This document shows positions 34,008 to 48,028 of a DNA stretch of 64,000 nucleotides, piece by piece. The stretch comes from Saprospira grandis str. Lewin (GTDB lineage: Bacteria > Bacteroidota > Bacteroidia > Chitinophagales > Saprospiraceae), in NCBI RefSeq assembly GCF_000250635.1, contig NC_016940.1, forward strand, positions 1,288,995-1,352,994, written 5' to 3'. Every line of letters begins with the position of its first letter. The first letter of the stretch is position 1. Below the pieces are notes generated by a model that was not told where the DNA came from, ran no database searches, and saw only the letters and a program-made list of their open reading frames with translations. The position numbers were made by a program, and so were the translations under genes.

Positions 34008-34799
34008 TTATTCATCGGCATCATCGTCTAAATTCATGGCTGTAGATTGGCCCTTAGGCATCATGCTCGTATCATCCCAGAGCTTAGATACCCAAAAGCG
34101 AAGTACCGCCTGTTTCTTTTCTTCTTTATCCAGATAACCATAATTTCCAGCCGTTTTTGCTTCTAGTCGGAAATTAGTCTCTGAGCCCGTCCAACGGAAG
34201 CTGATTTTCCGCCAAAGCAAACCATAACTCGCCTTTACATGCTTGACCACCCCTTGGCCATAAGTAGCCGTGGCAATTGCATAAGTAAGGGCATATTTAG
34301 CTCTTTTCTTCCGGCCAGCAGCATGGGCAATAATTTCAAAAGCCTGAACGCCCTCCAAATCTGAAACGATAGGGTGCCAGCGGCCATCGGCGGGGATTTC
34401 TCCTTGAATAAAAGTGCCGACTCGACCATTTGCTCCAAGCATGCCATTCACCTCTAGCTTAAAGTTGGGCAAGCTGGTCCCAATACCTACATTACCTCCC
34501 TTCCGCAAGAAAAGAAGGGTTTCATTTTCGCCATCATTAAAGCTGAGCCCTTCACTATGTGGAGTGGGATTCATCGAGATGCTAAAAGAGGCCTGAGGGT
34601 CTCGGATGCTTTCATAGAAGCTCATCAAGCGCTTATTTGGGCCTTGAGTGGCCAACATAAGGCCCTCAGTCGAACTTTGAGAGAAACCGTCATCTACCTT
34701 ATTGACGGTAGAGTCGATAAGGTCAGCAAAGTTCACTTCTGTGGGGACCATGCCCCTTTTGAACAGATTTTTGAGTGTGCTACGCGTGAGTAAAGCCAT
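34008..34799 (-). CDS. tail-fibre-like protein (putative CIS fibre)
   Basis: The motif GGNVGIGTSLPNFKLEVNGMLGANG resembles the xVGIGTxxPxxKLxV fibre/collar repeat of phage tail fibres. It is co-oriented with and directly downstream of the CIS baseplate gene. The C-terminus is acidic. Confidence 0.4.
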   Translation of the reverse strand: MALLTRSTLKNLFKRGMVPTEVNFADLIDSTVNKVDDGFSQSSTEGLMLATQGPNKRLMSFYESIRDPQASFSISMNPTPHSEGLSFNDGENETLLFLRKGGNVGIGTSLPNFKLEVNGMLGANGRVGTFIQGEIPADGRWHPIVSDLEGVQAFEIIAHAAGRKKRAKYALTYAIATATYGQGVVKHVKASYGLLWRKISFRWTGSETNFRLEAKTAGNYGYLDKEEKKQAVLRFWVSKLWDDTSMMPKGQSTAMNLDDDADE

Positions 34800-34939
34800 T
34801 GAGTTGGATACTTTAACTTAAATGGAAAGGCGGGTGAATGCCATCAAATTTAAAAAATTGTTTGGAAAAGGCGCAGTCAAAACGATTTTATAATTTAGAT
34901 TTTCTTAATAACGCCTTTATTTATTGTTTTTTAGGGCTT

Positions 34940-35111
34940 GGCGAGGCGGCGCAGCCGCCTGCGAGCGCAGCGAGCCATGGCCCAGCGCTGCGGAGTGGGT
35001 GGCCGAAGGCCAGACCGAAGCGCTGCAAGCGCTGAAGGGCCGAGCGAATAGCGAGCCCCGCAGCATAGCGGCGGCCGCCCCGCTATAAAGGGCGGCCGCG
35101 GGCCCCAAAAA
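34940..35111 (-). repeat. GC-rich interspersed repeat, copy 13
   Basis: The sequence ggcgaggcggcgcagccgcc...gggtggccgaaggccagacc...gggccgagcgaatagcgagcccc...ggccccaaaaaa lies between the baseplate gene and the fibre-like gene. Confidence 0.8.
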
Positions 35112-35188
35112 ATGGACCTTGTAGCACTAAAAAAGGCCCAAAAGTGCGTGGACTTCTGGGCCTAATCGGTTATGTTTTATGCGATTGT

Positions 35189-38100
35189 TTAATCGTCTAG
35201 TTCACGCTCTTCGGTCATTACAAAGTCGCCATCGAGCATCATATTGTCTAGGCCAGCTTTGGCAGGAGACTGGAAAGCCACCTCGTCGAGGAGATAAAGT
35301 GGGTTTTTCTCGAAAGGAATGAGGACCGACCAAGGCGTGGTGGCCTTGAGTAAGGGCGAAGAAGAGGTATCGATAGCGGTATCGCCTACATCGAAACCTT
35401 CGCCACTGGGGAAAACCTGAACGGCAGAAAACTTAGTGACAAAATCGACATACTCTCTTTTTTCGATAAAGCTAAGGAGAACATCCTTGGCGATAGTACC
35501 GCCTAATTCAAGTTCTCTTTGGCCGCCATACATCCAGGGGCAGACAAAGTCCATAATATCCTTATTCAACTTTTTGAGGAAGGTACCGTTGTTCATGCCT
35601 TTTTGGAAGCGCAGACCGCCGGCTACTTTCACTCTTTCGTAGATAGGGTTACGGAGTTTGATCTCGACAAAGGGCGAAGCTAGTGGGATGAGGTAATCGC
35701 GGATAGCTTCTAGGGTAGCGTTATTCACCATGGGGAGGCGACCTTGGTGAGAAGCTTTAATTCTGGGTACGACCACGAGGACCACCTGTCCTTTTTCTAC
35801 AAAGGCTTCATTGCCGATATGCGTTACGCATTTCACTTGGAAAATATCGGGAAACTGGTCGAGGACCAGGCGTTCATAATCCCAGGCAGAGACGGCTCTA
35901 CCTTTATGGCGGAGGCGTTCGCTACTGCGGGTATAGAACTCTTTTTTATTTTCGCCGGGTCGGCCTTCAAAAGAGCCAAAAGGTTGTTGGACCGATCGGA
36001 TTTGGACCAATGGGCTGGCCAAATTTTTAATTTTATTGGCGGCCAATTTTTCTTCCAAGTGTTTCACCTCCTCTTCGGGGTTTCCGGCCCAGGTAGCCGA
36101 AATGGCTTGGGTAGAGAGGTGTAAAACGGTAGGCATACGGCTAGCGTCGCCACGGAGAGAGGCGCGCAGCCAGAACTTTCCTTTATCGAAGATGGTATTA
36201 TTATCTGAAATATCTCTGGGGATATCGAAAGTGATAATTCCGGAGTTATTAAAGAAATTGGTGGTATCGTTTAGGATTTGGGTTTGCGAAAACTCCTTCC
36301 ATTCGTCATTAACGAGGAAGCTCCAAACGATTTCGGCCTGTTTGGCTTCGCTACTACGGCCCTTCATCATAGAGAAATAGTCTTGATTCTCTTTGAGTTC
36401 GAAGTAGATAGAGAGTGTAGCGGGTGGGTTAAAATCTTTGATCCCAAGGAAGAGGTAAGCATCTTCATCGTAGGCGGGCAGCAAAGTGGGTTTAATTGGG
36501 CGGCCTTGAGAGAAGTTGCGCATCACACCGAAGGGGTGGATATGGAACAGCTCTTCGACCACACCGCCAGAGCTATTTACGGTACCGATAGACATGATAT
36601 TGACTTGAGCTGTAGCGGTATAGTCAATGCTCATATTTCGGATAACGGGAGTAAAAGGTTGGTTGGGGAGTTTCTTTTTCTCCTTAGTTTTGGGGTCTGC
36701 ATTATGGGCAGCCACATCGGCGTAGAGATTGGGAAACTCATCGTGGGCGAAAGCAGAGGGCGGGTTAGTTAATTCCATGCGGAAATAGCCGGTTTGCGTT
36801 TCGCTGGTATAGGTATCAATCTGTTTGAGATTGGCCTGTGGTTCTAGGCCAAAAAGTTTGAGATCGATATTATCTAGGCAAGTAGCATTACTAATGCCAT
36901 GCACATTATCCTCATCTTGTTCGAAGAGGAAATACTCCTTGACATTATTTTTATTTTCTGGGAAGAACTCCCCTTCTCGGAGGGCCGACAATTTGATTCG
37001 GTAATCTTCATTTCGGATACCGAGGCCATACTCTCGATAATAGCCACGGAGGCCTTTTGTATTATCGGGTAGATTATGCCAATTGATATTGATTTTGAGG
37101 TTAGTCAGCTCCTTTTTGAAGAGCTCAGTTTTTCCGATAAGGAGATAAGAGCCTAGCTTAGGCGTGGGGCCAAAAGCTTGGAAAGGGATACTGCCTTCTA
37201 GTTGGCCGTATTCATTACTTAGGTTTAGGCGTTTGATTCCTTTGACCTCAACATCAATGTTAATGCGTTCTAGGCTTAGCTCTTTAAGGAAAGAGTAAGA
37301 GTAGGTTACATTTTCATTTTGGTGAAGGACCTTCATCACGGGAAGGCTAGTATCGAAATCGGGGCCTAGGACATCGGCATTATAGCCCACGATAGCGGGG
37401 GCATTAGCAGATACGGTAGCGAGCAGGCTAAACTCGGGGATATTCCAGTTTTCTGGGGGAAGGAGTTCGCAGCTTTTGGCTTCGATCCAGCCTTCTTCTC
37501 CAGAGAGGACTAATTTCAGGCTATTTTTAAAGACCTTAGAGAAGGCATCTTCTTTAGATAGGCCTTGATTTCGGCTAATATCCTTAATCAAAAGATTTAG
37601 GGTATACATAGAAGACTTATCGAATCGCATGCGCAACTTGATACTACGGTGGCCTTCTTCCATTTCGAGAATAGGCGCAGCCATAGCCCAGCCTACTTCG
37701 GCATAGACCATTTGGCGTTCATCGGAAGCTTTTTCGAGTAATTCTTCTCCGAAGGCGGGCCATTCCTCTTCATTATTGATAAAGCGTTTGCCTAGGCCAT
37801 CTCTAGAGTTGGCGACAGGGGCGGCATACATATTTGTGATAAGGCGATAAGAGCTCCCGATACCGATTTTTGGGTTTTTGCTCACAAAAAGCGTCTTAAC
37901 TGCATCCACTTTAGCTTGGTTCAGTTCGATACCATAATCGGTTTTATAGCGGATGGGTTTACCATCTTCATCGACGCCAGCGTCTAGGAGAGTGCCAGCG
38001 GGGAGGAAAAAGCTATCAATATGTTTGGCCAGGTTAAAATAGACATTTACCTGATCGGGTTGCAAGCCTCTTTCCTGCATTTTAAGCACATCGTAATAAT

Positions 38101-38959
38101 AGAAATCGAGATGCTTTTCGGTGAGGGTATTCAGGTGGTCCTGATTATGTTTAAAGAGTTTCACAAAAGCGATAAAGAGCGCCAAATCGGGGCGGTGATC
38201 ATCTTTTTCTTTGAGTGATTTCTCTAGATATTTTGGTGCTTCTTGTACGATATAAGAGAGCACGCTATAGAAGGTCCGGAACTGTAGTCGGATCTTCTTG
38301 GTATAATCTTGAATTTTGAAGTTAGCTCTAGGGTCTTCTACTTCGATAGCGCGAGCAGAGAGCAACTTTTTAGAGGGGAACCAGATGCTATGAAAATGCT
38401 CTTCGATTTCGTTGGGGCTATAGGGGCCTGTTTGGTGAAACTCGAGGAAGCGATCTTGTTCTAGGAGTTCGAGTAAATTAGAAGAGAGCTGTTGTTTGAT
38501 AGCGTTCTCTAATTCGTTCTCTAGTTCATCGGTATCGCCGGGTTGCAGGGTATTCATTTTGAGGGCATGCACATACCAGTCGTTAAACTGTTTGGCCATG
38601 TCGAACACCTGCGTATAGAGGGCCTTAAGCGCTTCTAGGCGGCCTGCGGTACGGGCGGCATTTTCTAGCTCGGTAATATATTTGGCGTGTTCCTGCTCAA
38701 TTTTTTTAAGATCGGTAGCGATAATAGAGGCCAAGAAAACTGAGAGGTCATTGCGCAAAAAGCGCGACCAATCTCCTGCGGGGGAATTAGTTTGGTCATA
38801 AAACTGGACCATTTCGGCATATTTGGCAGAAAAGGCGAGGAGGTCACTAGTAGAGCGTTCATCTACCTTAATATATTCTGGGATGAGAGCTTTGAGCAAT
38901 CGTTGGCTCTGCGTTACGCCATTCCAGGACAGGCTAGATTTATTCTTTTTGGTACTCAT
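35189..38959 (-). CDS. large baseplate protein (gp6/Baseplate_J-like, possibly fused with gp7-like region) of contractile injection system
   Basis: A 1256-aa ORF immediately downstream of the gp25-like gene in the CIS operon. The call rests on position and size, with no diagnostic motif. Confidence 0.5.
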   Translation of the reverse strand: MSTKKNKSSLSWNGVTQSQRLLKALIPEYIKVDERSTSDLLAFSAKYAEMVQFYDQTNSPAGDWSRFLRNDLSVFLASIIATDLKKIEQEHAKYITELENAARTAGRLEALKALYTQVFDMAKQFNDWYVHALKMNTLQPGDTDELENELENAIKQQLSSNLLELLEQDRFLEFHQTGPYSPNEIEEHFHSIWFPSKKLLSARAIEVEDPRANFKIQDYTKKIRLQFRTFYSVLSYIVQEAPKYLEKSLKEKDDHRPDLALFIAFVKLFKHNQDHLNTLTEKHLDFYYYDVLKMQERGLQPDQVNVYFNLAKHIDSFFLPAGTLLDAGVDEDGKPIRYKTDYGIELNQAKVDAVKTLFVSKNPKIGIGSSYRLITNMYAAPVANSRDGLGKRFINNEEEWPAFGEELLEKASDERQMVYAEVGWAMAAPILEMEEGHRSIKLRMRFDKSSMYTLNLLIKDISRNQGLSKEDAFSKVFKNSLKLVLSGEEGWIEAKSCELLPPENWNIPEFSLLATVSANAPAIVGYNADVLGPDFDTSLPVMKVLHQNENVTYSYSFLKELSLERINIDVEVKGIKRLNLSNEYGQLEGSIPFQAFGPTPKLGSYLLIGKTELFKKELTNLKININWHNLPDNTKGLRGYYREYGLGIRNEDYRIKLSALREGEFFPENKNNVKEYFLFEQDEDNVHGISNATCLDNIDLKLFGLEPQANLKQIDTYTSETQTGYFRMELTNPPSAFAHDEFPNLYADVAAHNADPKTKEKKKLPNQPFTPVIRNMSIDYTATAQVNIMSIGTVNSSGGVVEELFHIHPFGVMRNFSQGRPIKPTLLPAYDEDAYLFLGIKDFNPPATLSIYFELKENQDYFSMMKGRSSEAKQAEIVWSFLVNDEWKEFSQTQILNDTTNFFNNSGIITFDIPRDISDNNTIFDKGKFWLRASLRGDASRMPTVLHLSTQAISATWAGNPEEEVKHLEEKLAANKIKNLASPLVQIRSVQQPFGSFEGRPGENKKEFYTRSSERLRHKGRAVSAWDYERLVLDQFPDIFQVKCVTHIGNEAFVEKGQVVLVVVPRIKASHQGRLPMVNNATLEAIRDYLIPLASPFVEIKLRNPIYERVKVAGGLRFQKGMNNGTFLKKLNKDIMDFVCPWMYGGQRELELGGTIAKDVLLSFIEKREYVDFVTKFSAVQVFPSGEGFDVGDTAIDTSSSPLLKATTPWSVLIPFEKNPLYLLDEVAFQSPAKAGLDNMMLDGDFVMTEERELDD

Positions 38960-39025: not shown

Positions 39026-39442
39026 CTAGAGTTCGGTACCTTCTGCGAGATAGAAGGGATAGACCATATTGTTACGAGCATTTACGCCCTTAATTTCATA
39101 GACCACATTGACATTCACTCGGCCACGGAGCTGCTCGCTTTCGTCTACATCTACAGAGATGAGGCGGATACGGGGTTCGTGATAAAGGATAGCCGTAGTA
39201 ATGAGATCTTGAATTCGGATTCGGGTAGCGTTATTGATACTTTGAAAAGCTTGGCTATGGATATCGCAACCATAGCTAGGGTTCATGATTCGTTCGCCGG
39301 GGAGAGTAGAGAGGAGAATATTAAGGGATTCCTTAATATCTTCTTCATCTTGAGACATAACAATTCCGCGGGTAGAGTCGCTAAAGCGGGGCGGGAAGCT
39401 CCAGCCTGAGCCTAAAAATGATTTTTGGATATCGTCTGACAT
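39026..39442 (-). CDS. GPW/gp25-family baseplate wedge protein
   Basis: FLGSGWSFPPRF...ESLNILLSTLPGERIMNPSYGCDIH...IRLISVDV matches the gp25/TssE lysozyme-like fold signature. Confidence 0.85.
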   Translation of the reverse strand: MSDDIQKSFLGSGWSFPPRFSDSTRGIVMSQDEEDIKESLNILLSTLPGERIMNPSYGCDIHSQAFQSINNATRIRIQDLITTAILYHEPRIRLISVDVDESEQLRGRVNVNVVYEIKGVNARNNMVYPFYLAEGTEL

Positions 39443-39634: not shown

Positions 39635-39925
39635 CTACCCAATCAATACAGTAGGAGCACCAGCAACTACAGCACCGCCATGGCCACAAGAGTCGCCAAT
39701 ACGGGCAGCGGGTTTCCCCTCAATCATGACCGTTCCAGAGCCAGAGGCAATCGAATCGCCTGCGCAGGCACAGACGGCAGAATCGCCGAGTCGGGCGGCT
39801 GGAATTCCGGTAACCATGACGGTACCGGCACCGCTAACAATGGGTCCACCTACATGAGGTGAAGGACCGGGGCAAACGGCGGGGCAAACGTGCATATCGC
39901 CAATTCGAGCAGAGGGCATTCCCAT
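39635..39925 (-). CDS. PAAR-repeat spike-tip protein
   Basis: Three PAAR motifs are present: SARIGD, AARLGD and AARIGD. The protein is Gly-rich and 96 aa long. Confidence 0.85.
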   Translation of the reverse strand: MGMPSARIGDMHVCPAVCPGPSPHVGGPIVSGAGTVMVTGIPAARLGDSAVCACAGDSIASGSGTVMIEGKPAARIGDSCGHGGAVVAGAPTVLIG

Positions 39926-39946: not shown

Positions 39947-41791
39947 TTAATTAATCTTCACTATAGCACCTTTCACTTCGCAGAGTCCGCCCCCTTCCAA
40001 TTTGGCCGAGGCAGAACCCTTGAGTTCCATAGTGGTAGAGCCTTCTCCTTTAACGGCTAGGGCCTTAATAGAGAAGTTGGCGACCGCCTCCATTTTGGTA
40101 TCGGACTTTGATTTAGTCTCGATGTTAATGTCGGCCTCCATTTTAATATTTTTCTTGGCTTTAACGACAAAGTCGCCATCGGTCTCGAAGAGAATCCCGT
40201 TCTTATCCATCAACATTTTGTTGACGTTTACGGGGTCTTCAATCAGGATCGTATCTTCATCATCATTGAGCTCGATAATCATCTTATCTTCTGTAATGAT
40301 CTTGACAATATTTTTGCCTGGATCATCCTGAAGTTCAATCCGGGTTTTCCCCTTATTGATAGAAATCGCCTTAAAGATGTTGGGATCTGCGGGAATATGC
40401 GTTTCCTCGGTCGTAATTCCTCTGCCGCTACTATACATAGAGCCCAGAATGACCGGATAAGTGGGGTCCGAGTTGAAAAAGCCAACCACCACCTCATCCC
40501 CTACTTCGGGATAGAAAACAAAACCGCAATCTTCGGTAGCATAATAATGCGCCATACGGGCCCAAACGCCCTCTCCAGCTTGGTCATCAATAATAGGGAT
40601 ATTGATGAGCACGCGAAATTCGCCATCGGGATCCGAGTCAATTTGCTTGACCACCCCATGCTGAAGCCCATGAATAGCGGGCAACATTCCGCCTGCGGGC
40701 CGAGAGCTAGCCGTAATATTGGCCTCCATATAAGGTTGGGGATCCATGCCCAAGCCTACCTCGGTCAACCATTGGCCTTTCATGACCGTATGGCGAATTC
40801 GGCTAACATAAGCATCGCCGACAAAGCGAGTTCCAAAGCCAAATAGCTCAATCGTTTTACCCAATTCCGCCTTAGCAGAACCATAAAATTTGAGGCTCCC
40901 TCGGATGCGAGAAAGATGTCCTCTTTGGTAAACCGAATCGGCCCAAGACTGAATCACATCCTTAGTCACTGGCGGAGTTGTTTTGACCGTATTTTTGGGT
41001 TCAATCACTGCGCCCAGCTTTCCGGGGTCCAAATCGCCCTGAGCATTTACTGTAGGTTTGGCCCCATCGGCCGTAACAATAGCCAAATCGGTATGGCTCC
41101 AACAAGTAGCGCCCACCTCTGTATATTGGTAAGTCGAATCGATATTCATATCCATCTCCACCAAATCATTTCCATAAGAAATGACCAGTTCAGACTTTTC
41201 GCTCACCGTAGGTTTCTTAATCGTAATTTCGCCATCATTGATAATGGTCACCAAGCTATTCACATCGGCCCGAGACTGAATAAAATCCCAGTCCGTACTC
41301 CAATACTGAATCAGTTTTTTGTGTGTGCCCGAAGTCCCTTCCACATCTGCAGAAAGTCCAGCTTCACTCACCACAGCCGAAATAATATCCGAGTCAGCCT
41401 GATCATAAAACACCTTGTTTTTACGGCCAACCGTTAGCTTGAGCGCCTCATCCTTACACTTGAGCACCAAAGAGGCACCACTATAATTAGACTGCTTAAT
41501 ACCGTGCTCCACCAAGATCCCCTTATAAAGAGTTTCCTCCTTACCTGGGCCATATCCCGCTTTCACCTCTACCTCCTTGCCCGGCTCAAACATGGCATCT
41601 TCAGAGGTAGGAAACTTTTGCTCCCGAGTATCTCCGTCCTTGAGTGTAATACGAGCATAAGGAATTTTATTCAGCTCCTTAACAATATCTACACTCTCCA
41701 CGACCATTGTTTTAGGCACCTCAGTTCCATCAATCAGTACAAGTACCGACAAATAGCCTTCGCCCATGCCTTTTACTGGAGAATCTGCCAT
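39947..41791 (-). CDS. VgrG-like spike protein (Phage_GPD/gp27-like + gp5 OB-fold + beta-helix)
   Basis: The N-terminal gpD-like region (YARITLKDGD...YKGILVEHGIKQ) is followed by the gp5-like segment RMAHYYATEDCGFVFYPEVGDEVVVGFFNSDPTYPVILGSMYS. The C-terminus has a repetitive beta-helix (VKAKKNIKMEADINIETKS...). Confidence 0.85.
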   Translation of the reverse strand: MADSPVKGMGEGYLSVLVLIDGTEVPKTMVVESVDIVKELNKIPYARITLKDGDTREQKFPTSEDAMFEPGKEVEVKAGYGPGKEETLYKGILVEHGIKQSNYSGASLVLKCKDEALKLTVGRKNKVFYDQADSDIISAVVSEAGLSADVEGTSGTHKKLIQYWSTDWDFIQSRADVNSLVTIINDGEITIKKPTVSEKSELVISYGNDLVEMDMNIDSTYQYTEVGATCWSHTDLAIVTADGAKPTVNAQGDLDPGKLGAVIEPKNTVKTTPPVTKDVIQSWADSVYQRGHLSRIRGSLKFYGSAKAELGKTIELFGFGTRFVGDAYVSRIRHTVMKGQWLTEVGLGMDPQPYMEANITASSRPAGGMLPAIHGLQHGVVKQIDSDPDGEFRVLINIPIIDDQAGEGVWARMAHYYATEDCGFVFYPEVGDEVVVGFFNSDPTYPVILGSMYSSGRGITTEETHIPADPNIFKAISINKGKTRIELQDDPGKNIVKIITEDKMIIELNDDEDTILIEDPVNVNKMLMDKNGILFETDGDFVVKAKKNIKMEADINIETKSKSDTKMEAVANFSIKALAVKGEGSTTMELKGSASAKLEGGGLCEVKGAIVKIN

Positions 41792-42190: not shown

Positions 42191-42880
42191 TTAATGGGCC
42201 ACCACCTTAGAGAAAGCGTAAGAAAGTTCAATTTCTTGGACCAGCAAATCCTCTGAAGTAGAATTGAGCGAGCTCAAGCTCATTTTAGAGGGATAGGCAA
42301 AATTAAACTCCATAGAAATCAAAATTTGCGGCTTTCCAGATTGCGTCAAGTTCGGGTGCATTACATTTACCTGTACCCCCTTGAGCTTAATCTGCTCATT
42401 CCAAGAAGCCATGGCCTCAAAACTTTCTTCACACCATTTGGTCCAAGGATCCGAGCTTTTAATGACATCTGGGCGCACCAAGCGCTTTAGCGTAATGGCC
42501 GAGTTTTTCATTTTATCGGGTAAGTCAATTGGATAATTATATCCCCCCTCATTATACGTCTTCTTTCCCTCCAAACCAATCTCCAAACCACTCACCTCAA
42601 TAAAGGAGTTATGAATATTGGTATCGCCAGGAGTAGGCAAGCCATTGGCTCCGCCACCGTCTATCTTATTGATTGCCTTTTTCATCATTCCTCCAATCAT
42701 TCCTCCTACAAAGGTATCTACAGCCCCTTTAGCAACTCCCGCCAAAAAGCTATTCCCTTCATGCTTCTGATCATACATCTGCACATCAAAATAAAAGGCC
42801 GGAATGGGCGAGGTCGTTTTTTCGTCCTCTTTCATGACTTCATCTAAGAAGCGCTCAAATGGGCTAATGGTATTATTCAT
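42191..42880 (-). CDS. tube-family protein with insertion (Afp5/tube-initiator-like)
   Basis: PAFYFDVQM...SFIEVSGLEIGLEGKKTYNEGGY...NSAITLKRLV matches the gp19/Hcp-like tube motifs FxVxIDG / EVSGLE / NITLKRG. A ~45-aa Gly-rich insert is present. Confidence 0.7.
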   Translation of the reverse strand: MNNTISPFERFLDEVMKEDEKTTSPIPAFYFDVQMYDQKHEGNSFLAGVAKGAVDTFVGGMIGGMMKKAINKIDGGGANGLPTPGDTNIHNSFIEVSGLEIGLEGKKTYNEGGYNYPIDLPDKMKNSAITLKRLVRPDVIKSSDPWTKWCEESFEAMASWNEQIKLKGVQVNVMHPNLTQSGKPQILISMEFNFAYPSKMSLSSLNSTSEDLLVQEIELSYAFSKVVAH

Positions 42881-42941: not shown

Positions 42942-43400
42942 CTAACCGCCCACCTCCGTTTCAAAATGACGGAAGGCAAACTCCATTTCTTCTACTGCCA
43001 CCTCATTTTCAGATTCGGCATCAAAGTTAGAGGGAATATATTTTGTGATAAAGGCCTTTTCGAGTCGCCAGATAAACTGCGTCTCCATATTGTGGTCCAA
43101 AAGGTGGATTTCAATAGTTCGGCGAGAGGTATACTCTCGACTCACTGCCACCTGGTCAAACAAACGGCTCATTTGATCATCTTGAGAAAACGATCCTTTT
43201 TTAAGGGTAATGCGGCTATACTGCAACATACCAGGCATACGCTCCTTTCCAAAAAAGGGAGAATTACCATCTCGGTACTCAATCACCCCAATTTCTGCCT
43301 CCAAACCATCTACAGTTTGAAAAGACATTTCAATTGGACCAATAAACACCCGAAAGCTAAAGCGCGTTAGGGGCCAAGTCATTGTGGAATCTGAACTCAT
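42942..43400 (-). CDS. contractile tail tube protein (T4 gp19-like)
   Basis: WPLTRFSFRVFIGPIEMSFQTVDGLEAEIGVIEYRDGNSPFFGKERMPGMLQYSRITLKKG carries the tube signature. Confidence 0.85.
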   Translation of the reverse strand: MSSDSTMTWPLTRFSFRVFIGPIEMSFQTVDGLEAEIGVIEYRDGNSPFFGKERMPGMLQYSRITLKKGSFSQDDQMSRLFDQVAVSREYTSRRTIEIHLLDHNMETQFIWRLEKAFITKYIPSNFDAESENEVAVEEMEFAFRHFETEVGG

Positions 43401-43648
43401 AACATCTATTTTTAAGAAAGCGGCTGCCCAAGTTAACTAGCTAAATACTAGGGCCAAGGCAAAGTTTTTTTGGGCCTATGCCCTGAAAATAGCGCTTAGC
43501 GATACTGCCTTTCATTATCAAGCAGTTAAGACCTGCTATAAGTTAAGCGCTTTAGGCTACTAAATTAAAGAAAAAATCTTAATAGCACAAAAAAAACCTA
43601 GCAGGTTTTTACCTGCCAGGTTTATTTTATTGCTAAGCTAAATTAAGC

Positions 43649-44104
43649 TTATGCAGTTTCCATAGTCCACTCTTCGCAGCAGAACTCAAGTTCTTCGATA
43701 GCGACTTCAGAGTCAGCTTCTGCGTCAAAAGGAGTAGGAGTAAACTTAGTAACGAAAGCGTTGAGTAGCGTCCAAGTGAAAACGATCTCATCAGCTTCAT
43801 TCATCAAGTGAATGATTACAGTGCGGCGCTCAGTGTGCTGGTGGTCAACTGAAAGCTCTTTGTACCACTGATAGAGGTAGTCATCGCTCTGGAAAGTACC
43901 CTTCTTCAAGGTGATGTTGCTATAAGACATCAAACCGGGACGCTTAGTCTTGTAGAAGTTGGTAGAGTTACCTGCGCGGTACTCCATTACAGAAATCTCA
44001 GTCTCAAGACCTTCGATTGTCTGGAAGCCCAAAGTGTTGGGGATATTGTCAATCTCGATAGAGAAATAAAACTTAGGCAGTGGCCATTCTGTTGTTGCAG
44101 ACAT
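43649..44104 (-). CDS. contractile tail tube protein (T4 gp19-like), paralog
   Basis: WPLPKFYFSIEIDNIPNTLGFQTIEGLETEISVMEYRAGNSTNFYKTKRPGLMSYSNITLKKG. It is highly expressed-looking: biased codon usage and short. Confidence 0.9.
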   Translation of the reverse strand: MSATTEWPLPKFYFSIEIDNIPNTLGFQTIEGLETEISVMEYRAGNSTNFYKTKRPGLMSYSNITLKKGTFQSDDYLYQWYKELSVDHQHTERRTVIIHLMNEADEIVFTWTLLNAFVTKFTPTPFDAEADSEVAIEELEFCCEEWTMETA

Positions 44105-44216: not shown

Positions 44217-45710
44217 TTACTCAGCAGCACCGGGCATTTTTTGCTGGAAGGTGATAACGATGAATTCAGCAGGACGAGAGATAGCTACTTTCACAGAAAC
44301 TTTCATGTAACCATCTAGGATATCCTGAGGAGTCATAGTTGTACCCAAACCAACCTCAACTTGGAAAGCCTGATCTTCAGTAGCACCTACCAAAGCACCT
44401 GCTTGCCACTGGCTACGCAAGAAAGAACCAATCATTGATTTAACTGCGATCCAAGTGTTAGCGTCATTGGGACGGAATACGAAGGGCTCACAAGCGAACT
44501 TCACAGACTGCTCCAACATGATCATAGTACGACGTACGTTAATGTAGCGCCAGTCTTGGCTGTTACCGTCTAGCGTACGAGCACCCCATACCAAAGTACC
44601 TTTTCCAACGAAAGGACGGATAGCGTTGATTGCTTTACCGCTCAAAGGCAAGTTCAAGTCTTCTTGCTCAGTAGCAGAAATGTTCACAGTAGGTCCAGTT
44701 ACAGAAGAAACTGATACGTTAGCAGGAGCTTTGAATACACCTACAGTACTATCTACCAAAGAGTATAGACCAGCTACAGCGCCAGAAGGAGGCAATACGT
44801 TCAACATGTCACGCATTTGACCCAATACATCATTGTATACAGGGCTTACAGCCTTCATGATGTTGTGTACAGCAGTTACGTTAGCATCAGCGTCAGCCAT
44901 CTTAGCGATTTCAGCTTTGATCAACTCACCTTTTTCAGCTTTAACGAAACCAGCAGCTACGTTGTCATCTACTTCTTTGTTAAGCAATTCAACGAAACCT
45001 TCTAGGTTAGCAACGTTAGTGTAGTCAAACTCATCAGCTTGAACAACAGTAGCTTTCAACCAAGGGTAGTAAGCTGCACCGAAGTCTAGGAAGTTGTTGC
45101 CATAAGCCTCACGAGCGCGAGTTACAACATCATCATCTAGCATGCTGCGAGATTCGTTACCGTTCCATACGTCAAGGATAGCGAAGCGGCTGCGAGTGTC
45201 AGCACCACAATGCTTCAACATTGCTTGTTGTACTGTAGCACAGTCACCTTCTTCCAAAGAGATAGCATCGGGAACTACAACCAAAGTAGGCTCTTGCTCC
45301 TTCAACAAAGCAGTGATACCACCACCGTTCTCAGCACCCACTAGGGTCTTGGGAGAAACGTCGTCGTTGTATCCACCAACAGAAACGATGTAGCAAGTTC
45401 CACCGCCGTTAGCGTAGAACATTTGAAGGCTACGGAACAACATGTAGTTACCGCCATCAACAGAAACGGTGTAGTTGTCGCCTTCAGCATCAACGTTGAA
45501 AGTAGTTTTGGGAGCACCACCGAAGTAAGATAGGTACTCAACCAAAGAAGTAATGCGCATTGGCGTGTTGGTCAAGTCGCGCTTACCAGCAGCGGCTTTC
45601 TCAGTGTGGCCAATGAAAGCAGGGATAGCAGTTCCTACTGCTACAACAGAATTCGAAAAGGCGCTTTTTTCTTCGATATAAACGCCTGGTGTTGCATACT
45701 GTTTTGCCAT
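44217..45710 (-). CDS. contractile tail sheath protein
   Basis: Sheath motifs are PGVYIEE at the N-terminus, FKAPANVSV, INAIRPFVGKGTLVWGARTL and WRYINVRR. Confidence 0.92.
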   Translation of the reverse strand: MAKQYATPGVYIEEKSAFSNSVVAVGTAIPAFIGHTEKAAAGKRDLTNTPMRITSLVEYLSYFGGAPKTTFNVDAEGDNYTVSVDGGNYMLFRSLQMFYANGGGTCYIVSVGGYNDDVSPKTLVGAENGGGITALLKEQEPTLVVVPDAISLEEGDCATVQQAMLKHCGADTRSRFAILDVWNGNESRSMLDDDVVTRAREAYGNNFLDFGAAYYPWLKATVVQADEFDYTNVANLEGFVELLNKEVDDNVAAGFVKAEKGELIKAEIAKMADADANVTAVHNIMKAVSPVYNDVLGQMRDMLNVLPPSGAVAGLYSLVDSTVGVFKAPANVSVSSVTGPTVNISATEQEDLNLPLSGKAINAIRPFVGKGTLVWGARTLDGNSQDWRYINVRRTMIMLEQSVKFACEPFVFRPNDANTWIAVKSMIGSFLRSQWQAGALVGATEDQAFQVEVGLGTTMTPQDILDGYMKVSVKVAISRPAEFIVITFQQKMPGAAE

Positions 45711-45767
45711 GATTTAATTTATTTTGAAAAGTTTAATTGATTTACAAATTTATTTTTTGTCATCTGA

Positions 45768-46895
45768 TTACAAATATACAATTATTTCGGAAAATACACC
45801 ATCCTCAACGTTAAAATCTGTTTTTAATATTGATTTTGCTGAATGATTAGGTAAATCTGTAATCCATTCGATTCCATTTTTGCCTCTTTTGGTCCGTAAC
45901 TTAAAGCGACTCAGCTGTTTTTCCTTAAAAGGAACAGGCTCTGAAGTTTTGACCAAAACGGCCAATTCGCCAGAAGGCATAAGTACCTCCTCGGCCTCTT
46001 CAAAGTCTACTGTCTCGCCAGCTCGACCATTATCGTAGGCCTCATGTCCTTTGTGCTGCTTATCCTCAGTCATTTCTACTATATAGTAATGCCAAGGTAA
46101 AGCCCTAGCTGGAAAATGGATATTATACTCTCTTTTGGTCAACAACTTTCCCTGCTCATCAAAAAAGCGGTAAGGGCTGTCATCCTCCTTATCTATATAA
46201 ATATCCACCACTCCCCAAATTCCGGCAGTTCCCTCAGGAGCCAAATAAAAAGTATATTCTTCCAAACCATCTAGCTGCAAAATATACTTACCGGCAGGGG
46301 CATCAGGGATCACTACATCCACATGAGCATTTTCGCCCTCCTGTTCCAAAAAGAAATAAGACTGGCCCAACTCATCTACCACCTCGATTTCCGCATCCTC
46401 CTCTTCATCATCAAATTCGTAGCGGAAAACAGGGCCTTCAAGCGGTAAGCGATCCATTTCAGAAACCAACTCATCATTAGACAAATTGCCCTCCTCATCT
46501 TCAATCTTATCTTCGGCCCGATTTGTAAAGTGATAAATATAGTCACCAAACTCATAAGGGAGGCCCGTATAGTTAAGGAAGAAAGCATCTTCTACCTTCA
46601 TCCAAAAACTCAACTTCAAAGGTTTTTCCAAACTTTCTAAAGCGGGCCCTCCAGAAACTGTCTCGCCATAACCAATCAGCAAATTATTGCCCTCAAAGGC
46701 CGTTTTAAGCTGTGTTTGCTTTAGGCGAAAAACCGTATCGGAAGTAGGACTAAGAACTACATCTTTACAGATCTGCTCATCAAAGTAATCGTGCAGTATC
46801 GCTATGTTTAATAGCTGATTGTAGCGAGTTTGAATGTTCAGCAGCATATGATGCTCCATCGGATTCCGTCGCCTGCTAAATTTACGTCTCTTCAT
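45768..46895 (-). CDS. hypothetical acidic protein between terminator and sheath genes (uncharacterised CIS component or cargo)
   Basis: A 375-aa ORF with an acidic stretch (EFDDEEEDAEIEVVDE) and no recognisable motif. The start may be the internal MLLNIQ. Confidence 0.5.
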   Translation of the reverse strand: MKRRKFSRRRNPMEHHMLLNIQTRYNQLLNIAILHDYFDEQICKDVVLSPTSDTVFRLKQTQLKTAFEGNNLLIGYGETVSGGPALESLEKPLKLSFWMKVEDAFFLNYTGLPYEFGDYIYHFTNRAEDKIEDEEGNLSNDELVSEMDRLPLEGPVFRYEFDDEEEDAEIEVVDELGQSYFFLEQEGENAHVDVVIPDAPAGKYILQLDGLEEYTFYLAPEGTAGIWGVVDIYIDKEDDSPYRFFDEQGKLLTKREYNIHFPARALPWHYYIVEMTEDKQHKGHEAYDNGRAGETVDFEEAEEVLMPSGELAVLVKTSEPVPFKEKQLSRFKLRTKRGKNGIEWITDLPNHSAKSILKTDFNVEDGVFSEIIVYL

Positions 46896-47199: not shown

Positions 47200-47204
47200 C
47201 CTTC

Positions 47205-47765
47205 CTAAATCTTGCGAATAGAAGGAATTTCTGGCTCGGGCTTTTTATGCTCAATCGGAATTGTTTTGAAGCGGTAGAGCACCGAAGGCAAATACTTGGC
47301 CCCTACCCCATTCCAAACATTAGAAATATCACGAAAATCTGGCGATACCATTTCGGCAACCAAACGCGTGAGAGTGCCCGAAAGTGCCGGCGTATTTTGC
47401 TCATTAAAAACGCCTTGGCGGCTTTGGAAAAAAGCAATGACTGAGCTGACAAACTTAAGGCCCTCCAGATAATTTTCATTGGTAAAATAGGCCGAAAACA
47501 ACATATATATATTGACTTCAACCGGGGGCGTCACCTTGGTAAAATTCCCTCGCTTATTCGGTTGATAAGTCGCCGTGCTGCTCTTATTGCGCTCGGCCTC
47601 AATGTTAATGATCGTCATCACGATCTTATCGGCCTCTTGCACCGCCATCGAGCCATCGGCATTAACCAAATGCGAAATGATGACCTTATCCTCTAATATA
47701 TTGTGTTTAGACTGCAAAAAGCGGTTGAGCTCGCCCACCACCGCCGTGACAACTTTATCAATCAT
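47205..47765 (-). CDS. Pvc16_N/DUF4255 tail terminator protein (Afp16-like)
   Basis: The N-terminus MIDKVVTAVVGELNRFLQSK...DKIVMTIINIEAERN has the pattern typical of DUF4255 proteins of extracellular contractile injection systems. Confidence 0.75.
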   Translation of the reverse strand: MIDKVVTAVVGELNRFLQSKHNILEDKVIISHLVNADGSMAVQEADKIVMTIINIEAERNKSSTATYQPNKRGNFTKVTPPVEVNIYMLFSAYFTNENYLEGLKFVSSVIAFFQSRQGVFNEQNTPALSGTLTRLVAEMVSPDFRDISNVWNGVGAKYLPSVLYRFKTIPIEHKKPEPEIPSIRKI

Positions 47766-47770
47766 AATCC

Positions 47771-48028
47771 TTATTCTTCTTCCTCCTCAGCTTCTGGCTG
47801 AGTCAGTGTTTTGATAGAAAGCGCAATAAAACGCATAATATAGATGCCCAAAAAGGAGGTAAAATAACCAATCAAGTACATCCAGAACACCCAGTTGCGC
47901 TCAATTTCACTCATATTCACCACCTCTCTGGTATAACCAAAGAACCAAAGGAACACCACCGCCATGGGCAGCGAGACGATCAGGGCCACAATTAGCCAAA
48001 TGAACTCTCTTGCGATTATTTTAAACAT
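47771..48028 (-). CDS. small membrane protein (2 TM) at head of CIS operon
   Basis: Two hydrophobic helices (FIWLIVALIVSLPMAVVFLWFF and WVFWMYLIGYFTSFLGIYIM) and a poly-Glu tail. Confidence 0.5.
   Translation of the reverse strand: MFKIIAREFIWLIVALIVSLPMAVVFLWFFGYTREVVNMSEIERNWVFWMYLIGYFTSFLGIYIMRFIALSIKTLTQPEAEEEEE

What the first reader, a model, noticed from the sequence alone, without database searches (positions are those of the whole stretch)
34008..48028. Compact phage-tail-like contractile injection system (eCIS/tailocin/rhapidosome-like) with atypical gene order and missing ATPase and tape-measure genes
Twelve co-oriented minus-strand genes encode the parts of a contractile nanomachine. 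They are the Pvc16_N/DUF4255 terminator, sheath, two gp19-like tube proteins, a third tube-fold protein with a Gly-rich insert, a VgrG-like gpD+gp5 spike, a three-motif PAAR tip, gp25, a 1256-aa gp6-like baseplate protein and a fibre-like protein. Capsid, portal, terminase and integrase genes are absent, so this is not a prophage. TssK, ClpV and TssJLM are absent, so it is not a T6SS. A DUF4255 terminator together with a fibre points to an extracellular CIS. Three features are unusual. The terminator gene sits at the 5' end of the operon, whereas Afp and PVC loci carry it last. No AAA+ ATPase (Afp15-like) or tape-measure (Afp14-like) gene lies anywhere in the 64 kb. Neither VgrG nor PAAR carries an effector extension, so the cargo is unidentified. 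If the host is a Saprospira-like organism, this could be the long-sought genetic basis of rhapidosomes; that is speculation.
Basis: partly seen in the sequence, partly recalled or inferred. Interest (0 to 1): 0.8.

Follow-up and report, generated by a model that had tools for sequence, protein, structure and literature searches.

The report
Saprospira grandis contractile injection system cluster
This is the phage-tail-like contractile injection system of the predatory marine bacterium Saprospira grandis; it is real, but it is already in the literature as the likely basis of the "rhapidosomes", and it most likely fires from inside the cell to kill captured prey rather than being released.

Summary
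The gene calls are correct. Minus-strand genes at 34008-48028 encode cap, sheath, three tube-fold proteins, VgrG, PAAR, gp25, a 1256-aa Cis11 baseplate protein and a fibre-like Cis13 protein. The two unknowns are now assigned: the 375-aa protein is the cap adaptor and the 62-aa protein is DUF5908.

The window is Saprospira grandis str. Lewin. Its sheath is already annotated "cytoplasmic fibril protein". Lien et al. 2024 characterised the orthologous Aureispira machine as a membrane-anchored T6SS subtype iv that kills prey. They cite the S. grandis cluster and equate rhapidosomes with it.

The "atypical" gene order (cap first) recurs in every related locus I fetched that covers this region, and the solved thylakoid-anchored and Salmonella systems share the cap-adaptor and baseplate parts. 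No ATPase, tape-measure or Cis12 gene lies in the window or within 10 kb in eleven related loci. Split loci are common in this lineage.

The cluster extends upstream to 54917. Four conserved genes lie there: a secreted 346-aa protein, two signal-peptide/GH18/3-TM proteins built like SalCis20, and an 85-aa two-TM protein. In strain Lewin an IS3 element (48551-50029) cuts the membrane anchor off the second GH18 gene.

Verdict: already known. The eCIS label is probably wrong.

The parts
53877..54917 (-). 346-aa secreted protein of unknown fold; first gene of the conserved head module (Met start at 54915-54917; the mechanical ORF starts at a TTG at 54956)
   Evidence: The N-terminus MRIPKKLHWQWFALLLCLLYSPLQAQ looks like a signal peptide. 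It has no Pfam, NCBIfam or PHROG hit. Only 5 homologues were found, at 45-98% identity. A gene of this size sits in this position in L003, L004, L009, L010, L011, L012, L014, L015 and L016. The AF2 model is poor (pLDDT 61) and its Foldseek matches are meaningless.
51954..53840 (-). GH18a, 628 aa: signal peptide, GH18-like periplasmic domain, C-terminal membrane domain of three TM helices as in its orthologues. Same architecture as SalCis20.
   Evidence: Pfam Glyco_hydro_18 9e-27. PDB hits are chitinases and the sporulation glycosylase YdhD 3cz8. Hydrophobic stretches lie at residues 1-22, 534-560 and 593-621, and the motif is DGVEINFE. The SalCis20 architecture is described.
49989..51908 (-). 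GH18b, 5' part. Genuine coding sequence ends at the IS junction near 50030; the last 13 codons and the stop of the 639-aa ORF come from the IS.
   Evidence: Pfam GH18 1.5e-24. The intact orthologue in DSM 2844 is 725 aa with three C-terminal TM helices. The Lewin protein diverges after ...KIHYTIA. The 725-aa form is the commonest in the 90% cluster.
48551..50029 (+). IS3-family insertion sequence: orfA 48593-49015, orfB 49036-49899, imperfect terminal inverted repeats TGTCTTGTCCTGA / TCAGGACGGGACA, 3-bp target duplication AGG.
   Evidence: NCBIfam transpos_IS3 scores 231 bits against a cut-off of 160. Pfam finds rve. The element is absent from S. grandis DSM 2844, where the flanks join directly. 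There is one copy in the window.
48249..48548 (-). GH18b 3' remnant: 99 intact codons encoding the three-TM anchor, cut off by the IS.
   Evidence: The translation YQIKKANGVVFSTLLAML...KRQQKRLP* has no internal stop and matches the DSM 2844 C-terminus.
47771..48028 (-). 85-aa protein with two TM helices and an acidic tail (...PEAEEEEE).
   Evidence: Sequence; hydropathy. It is 67-76% identical in L003 and L004. A gene of 84-86 aa sits immediately upstream of cis16 in all related loci that cover the site.
47205..47765 (-). Cis16 / Afp16-type tube-sheath cap (DUF4255).
   Evidence: Pfam Pvc16_N 7e-32. It is 73% identical in L003 and L004.
45768..46895 (-). Cap adaptor (Cis16b / Algo2 / All3326 family), 375 aa.
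   Evidence: A profile of the family (A1) hits All3326 of the thylakoid-anchored CIS cap at 1.1e-15, the AlgoCIS 'cap adaptor protein (Algo2)' at 2.2e-15 and 'SalCis16b - cap' at 1.1e-9. The single sequence gave only E 0.003.
44217..45710 (-). Contractile sheath Cis2, the 'cytoplasmic fibril protein'.
   Evidence: Pfam hit. PDB: SalCIS sheath 4e-155, AlgoCIS 5e-107, tCIS 5e-95, PVC/Afp about 1e-48, pyocin 1.6e-4. It is an exact match to AFC24052.1 / UniProt H6L5D8.
43649..44104 (-). Main inner tube protein (Cis1-like).
   Evidence: Pfam gp19 3.5e-34. NCBIfam TIGR02241 scores 107 bits, above its cut-off.
43594..43623 (-). Terminator-like hairpin after tube1 (13-bp stem, T-run). It sits at the point where related clusters are split.
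   Evidence: Hairpin. L010, L015 and L016 end their cluster after tube1.
42942..43400 (-). Second tube-fold protein (Cis1b/Cis5-like), 152 aa. It lacks the repeat extension carried by its closest orthologues.
   Evidence: Pfam gp19 1.8e-27. Orthologues at 58-63% identity are 405-789 aa, with the tube domain at the C-terminus.
42191..42880 (-). Tube adaptor / initiator (Cis5/Cis7-like), 229 aa, with a Gly-rich N-terminal part.
   Evidence: Pfam gp19 5e-13. PDB 9rce_I 1e-11. NCBIfam CIS5_fam 2.6e-7, below its cut-off.
41828..42016 (-). DUF5908 small protein, 62 aa; putative spike plug (Cis6) by position.
   Evidence: Pfam DUF5908 scores 27.8 bits against a cut-off of 27.7. There is no PDB hit. 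A gene of 56-61 aa holds the same position in relatives.
39947..41791 (-). VgrG-like spike (Cis8), with no effector extension.
   Evidence: Identity is 77% in L003/L004 and 66% in the Aureispira MAG L006.
39635..39925 (-). PAAR tip (Cis10), domain only.
   Evidence: Pfam PAAR 7e-25.
39026..39442 (-). gp25-like baseplate wedge protein (Cis9).
   Evidence: Pfam GPW_gp25 8e-26.
35189..38959 (-). Cis11 (gp6 / baseplate-J-like), long form of the kind that builds the cage around the spike.
   Evidence: PDB hits. It is 60% identical over its full length to the Aureispira MAG protein.
35134..35163 (-). Terminator-like hairpin after cis11.
34008..34799 (-). Cis13-type short trimeric fibre / putative membrane anchor, 263 aa.
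   Evidence: In profile A2, the N-terminal 40 residues match All3316 (18 chains in the tCIS baseplate) at 1e-7, and the middle matches the Bd2133 fibre at 1e-10. The AF2 model has pLDDT 82. Foldseek top hits are fibres, tailspikes and T4 gp9.
33951..33988 (.). Hairpin just downstream of the last gene; probable end of the transcription unit.
   Evidence: One arm of inverted repeat I7; this arm is itself palindromic (AAAGAGCCACTGAA...TTCAGTGGCTCTTT).

Best explanation
This is the T6SS subtype iv type contractile injection system of Saprospira grandis str. Lewin. It is the structure seen historically as cytoplasmic fibrils or rhapidosomes.

**Shown by homology**
- A Cis16 cap and a cap adaptor close a Cis2 sheath around a Cis1 tube.
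- The tube is built on tube adaptors, a VgrG-PAAR spike (probably plugged by the 62-aa DUF5908 protein), gp25 and a cage-forming Cis11.

**Inferred from the imaged Aureispira system (of which I hold the orthologous baseplate half) and from SalCIS**
- The baseplate sits on the cytoplasmic face of the inner membrane.
- It is held there by six trimers of the short Cis13 protein and by integral membrane partners.
- I propose those partners are the two signal-peptide/GH18/3-TM proteins, which have SalCis20 architecture, together with the 85-aa two-TM protein and the secreted 346-aa protein.
- The GH18-like domains would bind or remodel peptidoglycan where the machine crosses the envelope.
- On contact with captured prey the sheath contracts and drives the tube and spike out of the filament into the prey. 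This is the killing step of ixotrophy.

**Genes not found here**
- Cis12, an ATPase, a length ruler and DUF4157-type effectors, if the organism has them, are encoded elsewhere in the genome.

**State in strain Lewin**
- An IS3 element separates GH18b from its membrane anchor.
- It may also block read-through into the 85-aa, cap and cap-adaptor genes.
- The system may therefore be weakened or switched off in this strain.
For: **Identity of the source.** The proteins are exact matches to S. grandis str. Lewin, and the sheath is named 'Cytoplasmic fibril protein'. DSM 2844 is 95% identical in DNA.

**Component assignments.**

**Lineage.** The sheath is closest to SalCIS, then AlgoCIS, then the thylakoid-anchored CIS, and far from Afp/PVC. 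That is the clade holding the Amoebophilus T6SS-iv.

**Orthology to Aureispira.** In MAG L006 the same gene order holds, with VgrG 66%, gp25 60%, Cis11 60% and Cis13 61% identical.

**Published work on Aureispira.**
- Its T6SS-iv is anchored to the inner membrane.
- It has a trans-envelope complex whose parts are not named in the text I read.
- It is required for prey killing.
- S. grandis Cis2 clusters with Aureispira Cis2.
- Rhapidosomes are 'likely T6SS-iv structures'.

**Published work on SalCIS.**
- Cis13 and an integral membrane protein define a membrane-associated CIS class.
- That membrane protein has a Sec signal, a SleL-like periplasmic domain and three C-terminal TM helices.
- GH18a and GH18b have this architecture.

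**Linkage of the head module.**
- The block 346aa, GH18, GH18, 85aa, cis16, cap adaptor, sheath, tube1 is kept in all eight metagenomic loci that cover it. Their cap adaptors are 39-51% identical to the one here.
- It stays together in L010, L015 and L016, where the baseplate genes are elsewhere and the flanks differ.
Against: - No imaging or genetics exists for S. grandis itself, so membrane anchoring is carried over from Aureispira and SalCIS.
- Homology of GH18a/b to SalCis20 was not shown by sequence. A phmmer search of the PDB at E<=0.01 returned other GH18 proteins but not SalCis20.
- Cis12, which forms the wedge with Cis11 in the solved relatives, is not in the window or in any related locus fetched.
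- No ATPase or ruler gene was found.
- The catalytic motif of the GH18 domains is non-canonical (DGxExNFE). One orthologue lacks the catalytic Glu, so enzymatic activity is uncertain.
- The 85-aa two-TM protein could equally be read as holin-like.
Confidence: 0.78

Rival explanations
1. It is an extracellular CIS. Particles assemble in the cytoplasm and are released by cell lysis. They bind targets through the 263-aa fibre and inject from outside. On this reading the upstream GH18 proteins and the 85-aa two-TM protein would be a lysis cassette (murein hydrolases plus a holin-like protein).
For: - A DUF4255 cap, Cis11 and a fibre-fold protein are all eCIS-type parts.
- AlgoCIS, a true eCIS, is in the same sheath clade.
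- The 85-aa protein has the size and two-TM layout of a class II holin.
- From my own recollection of the older literature, not checked here: rhapidosomes were historically seen in lysed preparations.
Against: - The imaged Aureispira machine, whose baseplate genes are orthologous, fires while anchored to the inner membrane.
- The GH18 proteins have cleavable-type signal peptides and a conserved C-terminal three-TM domain. That is the SalCis20 layout, not an endolysin layout.
- One GH18 orthologue lacks the catalytic Glu.
- The 263-aa protein is the short Cis13 type shared with membrane-associated systems.
- No Afp15-type ATPase is in the locus, although more than 85% of eCIS loci have one.
Confidence: 0.12
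2. In strain Lewin the cluster is an inactivated or decaying remnant. The IS3 insertion, and the absence of Cis12, ATPase and ruler genes, mean that no working machine is made.
For: - IS3 interrupts GH18b.
- Other Saprospira sources carry other lesions in the cluster:
  - an IS between cis11 and cis13 in DSM 2844;
  - a different insertion in GH18b on scaffold L012;
  - split cis13 and split GH18b in CP110854;
  - split cis11 in one assembly.
- In Aureispira, IS insertions switch the system off in rich medium.
Against: - All 13 genes from 34008 to 48028, plus GH18a and the 346-aa gene, are intact open reading frames, with close counterparts (95% DNA identity overall) in DSM 2844.
- The cut-off 3' part of GH18b has no stop codon, so the insertion is recent and potentially reversible.
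- Absence of Cis12, Cis14 and Cis15 from the locus is shared by all relatives, including Aureispira, which has a working system.
- The CP110854 cis13 frameshift lies in a run of G and may be a sequencing error.
Confidence: 0.08
3. It is a defective prophage tail or an R-type tailocin.
For: The sheath, tube, gp25, baseplate-J and spike genes are all of phage origin.
Against: - The window has no head, portal, terminase, tape-measure/chaperone pair or phage integrase.
- The sheath matches the pyocin sheath only at 1.6e-4, against 4e-155 for a CIS.
- PHROGs finds no tail-fibre or tail-assembly families for the unknowns.
- The cluster is conserved in place across several genomes with ordinary chromosomal neighbours.
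Confidence: 0.02

Closest known systems
Aureispira sp. CCB-QB1 T6SS subtype iv (Lien et al. 2024, bioRxiv 10.1101/2024.01.29.577165; Science 386:eadp0614)
   Same: - Same family (Saprospiraceae) and same lifestyle (ixotrophy).
- The baseplate half of an Aureispira MAG cluster has the same gene order and 56-66% protein identity.
- The paper places S. grandis Cis2 next to Aureispira Cis2 and equates rhapidosomes with this machine.
- Insertion sequences land in the cluster in both organisms.
   Different: - The Aureispira cluster is said to include a putative tape measure (cis14) that fits its uniform 420 nm length. No such gene is present here.
- S. grandis tube2 lacks the repeat extension found in its closest orthologues.
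- Here the IS hits a GH18/3-TM gene rather than cis14 or cis11.
- No imaging or killing data exist for S. grandis.
SalCIS of Salmonella enterica subsp. salamae (PMC13266070; PDB 9R9H, 9R9N, 9RCE, 9R9A)
   Same: - It is the closest solved sheath (4e-155).
- The cap is made of Cis16 plus a cap adaptor (SalCis16b).
- It has a long cage-forming Cis11 and a Cis13-type short trimer.
[quoted passage not shown]
   Different: - SalCIS encodes Cis12, the Cis15 ATPase and two HEXXH effectors in its operon. None of these is in the window.
- S. grandis has two paralogous GH18/3-TM genes plus a 346-aa secreted protein and an 85-aa TM protein.
- Sequence homology of GH18a/b to SalCis20 was not demonstrated here.
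Thylakoid-anchored CIS of Anabaena (PDB 7B5H/7B5I) and AlgoCIS of Algoriphagus (7ADZ/7AEB)
   Same: Homologous cap adaptor (All3326, Algo2), sheath, tube adaptor, Cis11, and the N-terminal baseplate-attachment motif of All3316.
   Different: - AlgoCIS is released. The cyanobacterial system is anchored to thylakoids.
- Both have Cis12.
- Neither is reported, in what I read, to have the GH18/3-TM pair.
Afp / PVC extracellular CIS (Serratia, Photorhabdus)
   Same: Same basic parts list: sheath, tube, VgrG, PAAR, gp25, gp6-like protein, DUF4255 cap.
   Different: - Much more distant in sequence (sheath about 1e-48, Afp11 2.6e-27).
- The cap gene comes last in those operons.
- They carry Afp14, Afp15, long adenovirus-like fibres and toxin genes.
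- They have no cap adaptor, no long Cis11 and no membrane proteins.

Membership tests
Contractile injection systems in general | Sheath, inner tube, spike (VgrG-like), gp25-like wedge and gp6/baseplate-J-like protein encoded together | tested here: met
   Pfam and PDB matches.
Extracellular CIS (Afp/PVC type) | DUF4255 (Afp16) cap and Afp11-like baseplate protein, which are absent from canonical T6SS | tested here: met
   Pvc16_N 7e-32. Afp11 and Pvc11 are among the PDB hits. These features are shared with T6SS-iv, so they do not separate the two.
Extracellular CIS (Afp/PVC type) | Afp15-like AAA+ ATPase in the locus (present in more than 85% of eCIS loci) | tested here: not met
   Every ORF of 480 aa or more in the window, and nearly all of 120 aa or more, was scanned. 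The only AAA+ protein is FtsH. None lies within 10 kb in eleven related loci. The rest of the genome was not searchable.
Extracellular CIS (Afp/PVC type) | Release of free particles that bind targets through tail fibres | not testable with these tools
   Needs microscopy of supernatants. The fibre-like protein here is the short Cis13 type.
T6SS subtype iv / clade Ib membrane-associated CIS | Sheath groups with clade Ib systems rather than with Afp/PVC or canonical TssBC | tested here: met
   SalCIS 4e-155, AlgoCIS 5e-107, tCIS 5e-95, PVC/Afp about 1e-48. This is a ranking of E-values, not a tree. The tree in Lien et al. places S. grandis with Aureispira.
T6SS subtype iv / clade Ib membrane-associated CIS | Orthology and synteny with an experimentally imaged member (Aureispira) | tested here: met
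   Aureispira MAG L006 has tube adaptor, small protein, VgrG, PAAR, gp25, Cis11, Cis13 in the same order, at 56-66% identity (35% for the partial tube adaptor). The upstream half of the Aureispira cluster was not available.
T6SS subtype iv / clade Ib membrane-associated CIS | Cis13-type short trimer with an N-terminal baseplate-attachment motif | tested here: met
   Profile A2 matches the All3316 N-terminus at 1e-7 and the Bd2133 fibre at 1e-10.
T6SS subtype iv / clade Ib membrane-associated CIS | Integral membrane protein with Sec signal, periplasmic hydrolase-like domain and three C-terminal TM helices (SalCis20 type) in the cluster | tested here: inconclusive
   The architecture is met twice, by GH18a and by intact GH18b, and the genes are tightly linked to the cluster. 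Direct homology to SalCis20 (9R9A) was not detected by phmmer at E<=0.01. Fold comparison was not possible.
T6SS subtype iv / clade Ib membrane-associated CIS | Long Cis11 with the cage-forming extension | tested here: inconclusive
   The length (1256 aa) and the strong multi-stretch matches to All3317, Alg11 and SalCis11 fit. I did not model the cage region.
T6SS subtype iv / clade Ib membrane-associated CIS | Baseplate anchored to the inner membrane in situ; contact-dependent firing | not testable with these tools
   Needs cryo-tomography and killing assays.
Canonical T6SS (subtypes i-iii) | TssJLM (or TssN-R) membrane complex, TssK, TssF/G, ClpV | tested here: not met
   No such Pfam or NCBIfam families in the window. 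There is only a sub-threshold TssE-like score for the gp25 protein and a chance-level TssQ score.
Prophage tail / R-type tailocin | Tape measure with chaperone pair, tail-fibre assembly genes, lysis cassette; for a prophage also head and packaging genes | tested here: not met
   The pyocin sheath matches only at 1.6e-4.
IS3 family insertion sequence (element at 48551-50029) | Two consecutive ORFs with an rve (DDE) domain in the second, TG...CA ends with terminal inverted repeats, 3-bp target duplication | tested here: met
   transpos_IS3 scores 231 bits, above its cut-off. The empty site in DSM 2844 is shown.

The most novel reading that the evidence does not exclude
The conserved four-gene head module may build the trans-envelope complex that cryo-tomography showed in Aureispira, whose proteins are not named in the text I read. 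The module is the 346-aa secreted protein, two paralogous GH18/3-TM proteins and the 85-aa two-TM protein. Its repeated disruption in Saprospira would then be the same reversible IS on/off switch described for Aureispira, acting on a new target. The disruptions seen are IS3 in strain Lewin, a different insertion 22 bp away on an independent scaffold, and further truncations in other assemblies. A linked possibility is that S. grandis makes machines without a ruler, because its tube2 has lost the repeat extension present in all its closest orthologues.
Probability: 0.3. Interest if true: 0.55.

Novelty: already known. Interest (0 to 1): 0.3.

Why it matters
- This system is the killing device of a group of filamentous marine predators. 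It is also the explanation of a sixty-year-old microscopy puzzle, the rhapidosomes. Both points are already published, so the finding adds little as stated.
- Three details are useful:
  - a revised map of the S. grandis cluster, now 17 genes from 34008 to 54917;
  - named candidates for the unassigned envelope-spanning parts;
  - the fact that the reference strain Lewin carries an IS in one of those candidates.
- The last point matters for anyone who uses that strain or its genome as the wild type.

Tried and rejected
1. **375-aa protein as tape measure.** Rejected. Its family profile matches cap adaptors at 1e-15.
2. **Upstream operon genes lost through the IS.** Rejected. DSM 2844 has no IS there and the GH18 genes abut the cluster directly.
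3. **Extra genes in L007 as Cis12.**
   - L007 has genes of 303, 568 and 360 aa between cis11 and cis13.
   - They have no CIS match in Pfam, the 568-aa one has no CIS match in the PDB, and they have no homologue in the window.
4. **Fold of the 346-aa protein.**
   - Only 5 homologues were found.
   - The AF2 model has pLDDT 61.
   - Foldseek gave low-TM beta-sandwich noise.
5. **GH18 proteins as secreted cargo.** Rejected as the main reading, because they have Sec signals and conserved C-terminal TM domains.
6. **Tube2 repeat extension of relatives as the Aureispira 'cis14' ruler.**
   - This could not be tested.
   - The longest versions in the 50%-representative library are 742-789 aa. That is too short for 420 nm as a helix.
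7. **Bacteroidetes-type -7 boxes (TAnnTTTG).**
   - They lie upstream of the 346-aa gene, the sheath and cis13.
   - I found 4 against about 1.5 expected, which is not convincing.
8. **Locating Cis12, Cis14 and Cis15 elsewhere in the genome.** Not possible.
9. **The published Science version of Lien et al.** It is not held, so its figure 3a gene map could not be read.

Full report
**1. Observation**

The minus strand between 34008 and 48028 carries 13 closely spaced ORFs.

- the DUF4255 cap;
- the sheath, through its C-terminal domain model (the PF04984 model scores below its cut-off);
- two gp19-type tube proteins;
- a third tube-fold domain in the 229-aa protein;
- the OB-fold spike domain of VgrG;
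- PAAR and gp25.

The 62-aa ORF is DUF5908. The three proteins without a Pfam hit were resolved against solved structures:
- **1256-aa protein.** It is Cis11, the long baseplate-J/gp6-like protein. It matches All3317 of the Anabaena system at 7e-122, AlgoCIS at 3e-119 and SalCis11 at 2e-110, and also Pvc11 and Afp11.
- **375-aa protein.**
  - It belongs to a small family of 28 members.
  - The family profile matches All3326 of the thylakoid-anchored CIS cap at 1e-15.
  - It matches the AlgoCIS "cap adaptor" at 2e-15 and "SalCis16b - cap" at 1e-9.
  - It is therefore not a tape measure.
- **263-aa protein.**
  - Its N-terminal 40 residues match All3316, which is present in 18 copies in the cyanobacterial baseplate.
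  - Its middle part matches Bdellovibrio fibre proteins.
  - A confident model (pLDDT 82) resembles trimeric fibres, tailspikes and T4 gp9.

The negative statements hold for the window. No head, portal or terminase gene is present. No TssK, ClpV or TssJLM gene is present. No Afp15-like ATPase is present, and FtsH is the only AAA+ protein.

**2. Source and literature**

The VgrG gene is 99% identical at protein level to S. grandis DSM 2844. Six proteins of the window are exact matches to S. grandis str. Lewin. There the sheath (AFC24052.1, UniProt H6L5D8) is named "Cytoplasmic fibril protein".

Lien et al. 2024 studied the relative Aureispira. They report the following:
- Its CIS cluster (cis1-cis16) makes inner-membrane-anchored machines 420 nm long.
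- These machines have a trans-envelope complex and extracellular antennae, and they kill captured prey.
- The authors class the system as T6SS subtype iv.
- They note that the earlier "rhapidosomes" are likely these structures.
- They cite Furusawa 2005 for the sheath-like fibril protein of Saprospira.
- They state that S. grandis Cis2 clusters with Aureispira Cis2 and that S. grandis harbours a CIS cluster.

A 2022 review also links rhapidosomes with CIS.

**3. Are the three "unusual" features unusual?**

*Gene order.* Cap, cap adaptor, sheath, tube, tube, adaptor, small protein, VgrG, PAAR, gp25, Cis11 is the order in the relatives that hold the whole cluster. The others keep the same order up to the point where their cluster stops.
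- The relatives are L003, L004, L009, L010, L011, L015 and L016.
- It is also the order in a distant Bacteroidota MAG, L002, whose VgrG is only 33% identical.
- The solved Anabaena and Salmonella systems contain homologous cap-adaptor and baseplate parts.
- The order is therefore typical of this lineage and differs only from Afp/PVC.

*Tape measure.* Chen et al. 2019 report that Afp14 homologues are generally absent from lineage II loci, and that T6SS-iv is a split locus.

*ATPase.* None lies in the window or within 10 kb in eleven related loci. Several relatives are visibly split:
- L010, L015 and L016 stop after tube1.
- L009 stops after PAAR.
- L008 holds only a tube adaptor, gp25, Cis11 and Cis13.

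I could not search the rest of the S. grandis genome, so whether an ATPase, a ruler and Cis12 exist elsewhere stays open. Cis12 is also missing from the window.

**4. The cluster is larger than reported**

Upstream on the same strand lie four more genes:
- a 346-aa protein with a signal peptide (53877-54917);
- GH18a (51954-53840);
- GH18b (from 51908 downwards);
- the 85-aa two-TM protein (47771-48028).

Both GH18 proteins share one architecture. Each has a signal peptide, a GH18-like domain with the conserved non-canonical motif DG[IV]E[IL]NFE, and a conserved C-terminal domain of three TM helices.

This is the architecture of SalCis20. That protein is the integral membrane protein of the Salmonella CIS. 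Its periplasmic domain resembles the GH18 spore-cortex enzyme SleL, and it is proposed to anchor the baseplate through Cis13.

The block 346aa, GH18, GH18, 85aa, cis16, cap adaptor, sheath, tube1 is conserved in all eight metagenomic loci that cover it. Their cap adaptors are 39-51% identical to the one here.
- The block stays together where the baseplate half is elsewhere and the flanking genes differ.
- That linkage is stronger than the linkage between the sheath genes and the baseplate genes.

I therefore count these four genes as part of the system. I propose them as the inner-membrane and periplasmic part of the envelope complex. This step is inference:
- Sequence homology to SalCis20 was not detected.
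- One orthologue lacks the catalytic Glu, which points to a binding or structural role rather than catalysis.

**5. Mobile elements**

An IS3-family element occupies 48551-50029.
- It scores 231 bits against transpos_IS3.
- It has TG...CA ends and a 3-bp AGG duplication.
- It is absent from DSM 2844.

It sits inside GH18b, after codon 626.
- The Lewin ORF of 639 aa ends in IS sequence.
- The 99 codons for the membrane anchor survive intact at 48249-48548.

Other sources carry other lesions:
- DSM 2844 has a different transposase gene between cis11 and cis13.
- A metagenome scaffold has an unrelated insertion 22 bp further into GH18b.
- Another assembly diverges at codon 631.
- Genome CP110854 has GH18b split into 660 + 62 aa. 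It also has a cis13 frameshift in a run of G, which may be a sequencing error.
- One assembly has cis11 split into 1044 + 212 aa.

This echoes the IS-mediated switching of the Aureispira system in rich medium. It is weak genetic support that GH18b matters for the machine.

**6. Other anatomy**

- Terminator-like hairpins follow tube1 (43594-43623) and cis11 (35134-35163). A further hairpin follows the last gene.
- The long intergenic gaps of S. grandis are filled by a GC-rich repeat of about 100-135 bp that also occurs elsewhere in the window.
- The closest orthologues of tube2 carry N-terminal extensions of 250-640 aa.
  - These are built of about 40-aa repeats (L..L.GLAENPVLNS.THALHGKAG).
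  - The S. grandis protein is 152 aa, and only L009's 157-aa, more distantly related counterpart also lacks the extension.

**7. Verdict**

It is probably wrong on mode of action, which is T6SS-iv type rather than extracellular. It is also wrong on the claimed oddities and on novelty.

The system is already known. The modest new points are:
- the extended gene map;
- the SalCis20-like pair and its partners as envelope candidates;
- the IS in the reference strain;
- the absence of Cis12 and of the tube2 extension.

Noticed in passing
window 48551-50029: An IS3-family element is inserted in the GH18b gene of strain Lewin, with a 3-bp duplication. The cut-off 3' end of the gene is still intact. 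The element is absent from DSM 2844.
   Followed up: yes
L001 16994-17809 (corresponds to window about 34817): S. grandis DSM 2844 carries a different IS, with a 271-aa DDE transposase, between the cis11 and cis13 genes. Strain Lewin has none there.
   Followed up: partly
L012 5160-5390; proteins P0332, P0333, P0323; L014 4001-6178: GH18b is truncated at several different points in other Saprospira sources. An unrelated insert lies 22 bp beyond the Lewin site. Another source diverges at codon 631. Genome CP110854 has a 660 + 62 aa split. This is a possible insertion hot spot just before the TM domain.
   Followed up: partly
L013 6001-6793; proteins P0369, P0370: cis13 is frameshifted in a run of G in genome CP110854, which may be a sequencing error. 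cis11 is split into 1044 + 212 aa in one public assembly.
   Followed up: partly
L003 13382-14803, L004 13386-15059, L011 13440-15809 (counterparts of window 42942-43400): The closest orthologues of the second tube protein carry 250-640 aa N-terminal extensions. These are made of tandem repeats of about 40 aa with the motif GLAENPVLNS.THALHGKAG, and the repeat number varies. S. grandis lacks the extension. Its function is unknown; a lumen ruler or cargo is possible.
   Followed up: partly
window 33814-33907, 34978-35077, 39512-39608, 42076-42178, 47085-47181, 48081-48212, 55120-55213; also about 529-636, 4038-4179, 5213-5257, 7663-7796, 11398-11469, 16205-16237, 19633-19757, 55530-55621, 60573-60668: A GC-rich repeat of about 100-135 bp, REP- or MITE-like, fills the intergenic gaps of the cluster in both orientations. 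It also occurs elsewhere in the window. It explains why S. grandis has 190-390 bp gaps where relatives have 20-60 bp.
   Followed up: partly
window 35189-38959 and downstream; L006, L008, L002: No Cis12 (gp6/gp7-like wedge partner of Cis11) gene is in the cluster here or in any relative fetched. The solved relatives (SalCIS, AlgoCIS, thylakoid-anchored CIS) all have one.
   Followed up: partly
L009 1328-3190: In this relative the first GH18 paralogue has Asn in place of the catalytic Glu (DGIEINFN). At least some of these proteins therefore cannot be active glycosidases.
   Followed up: no
L007 5998-9822: One relative has three extra genes between cis11 and cis13. They encode a 303-aa helical protein, a 568-aa protein with a C-terminal TM segment, and a 360-aa multi-TM protein. 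They could be lineage-specific anchors or an effector/immunity set.
   Followed up: no
window 20628-23713 and 19749-20621: Three tandem paralogues of DUF6976 (about 326 aa each) lie next to a protoglobin-STAS protein.
   Followed up: no
window 8038-10790: Three tandem 180-aa paralogues and a 205-aa protein lie together. The two of them that were scanned carry a type IX secretion C-terminal sorting domain.
   Followed up: no
window 55716-58403: An 895-aa SprB-repeat protein with a T9SS sorting domain lies directly upstream of the extended cluster. It is also upstream in CP110854. In L015/L016 large SprB/T9SS proteins instead follow tube1. Whether T9SS cargo genes are linked to the CIS cluster was not examined.
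   Followed up: no
window 28823-32182: An 1119-aa nSTAND1 NTPase fused to WD40 repeats lies two genes downstream of the cluster. It is also present in CP110854.
   Followed up: no
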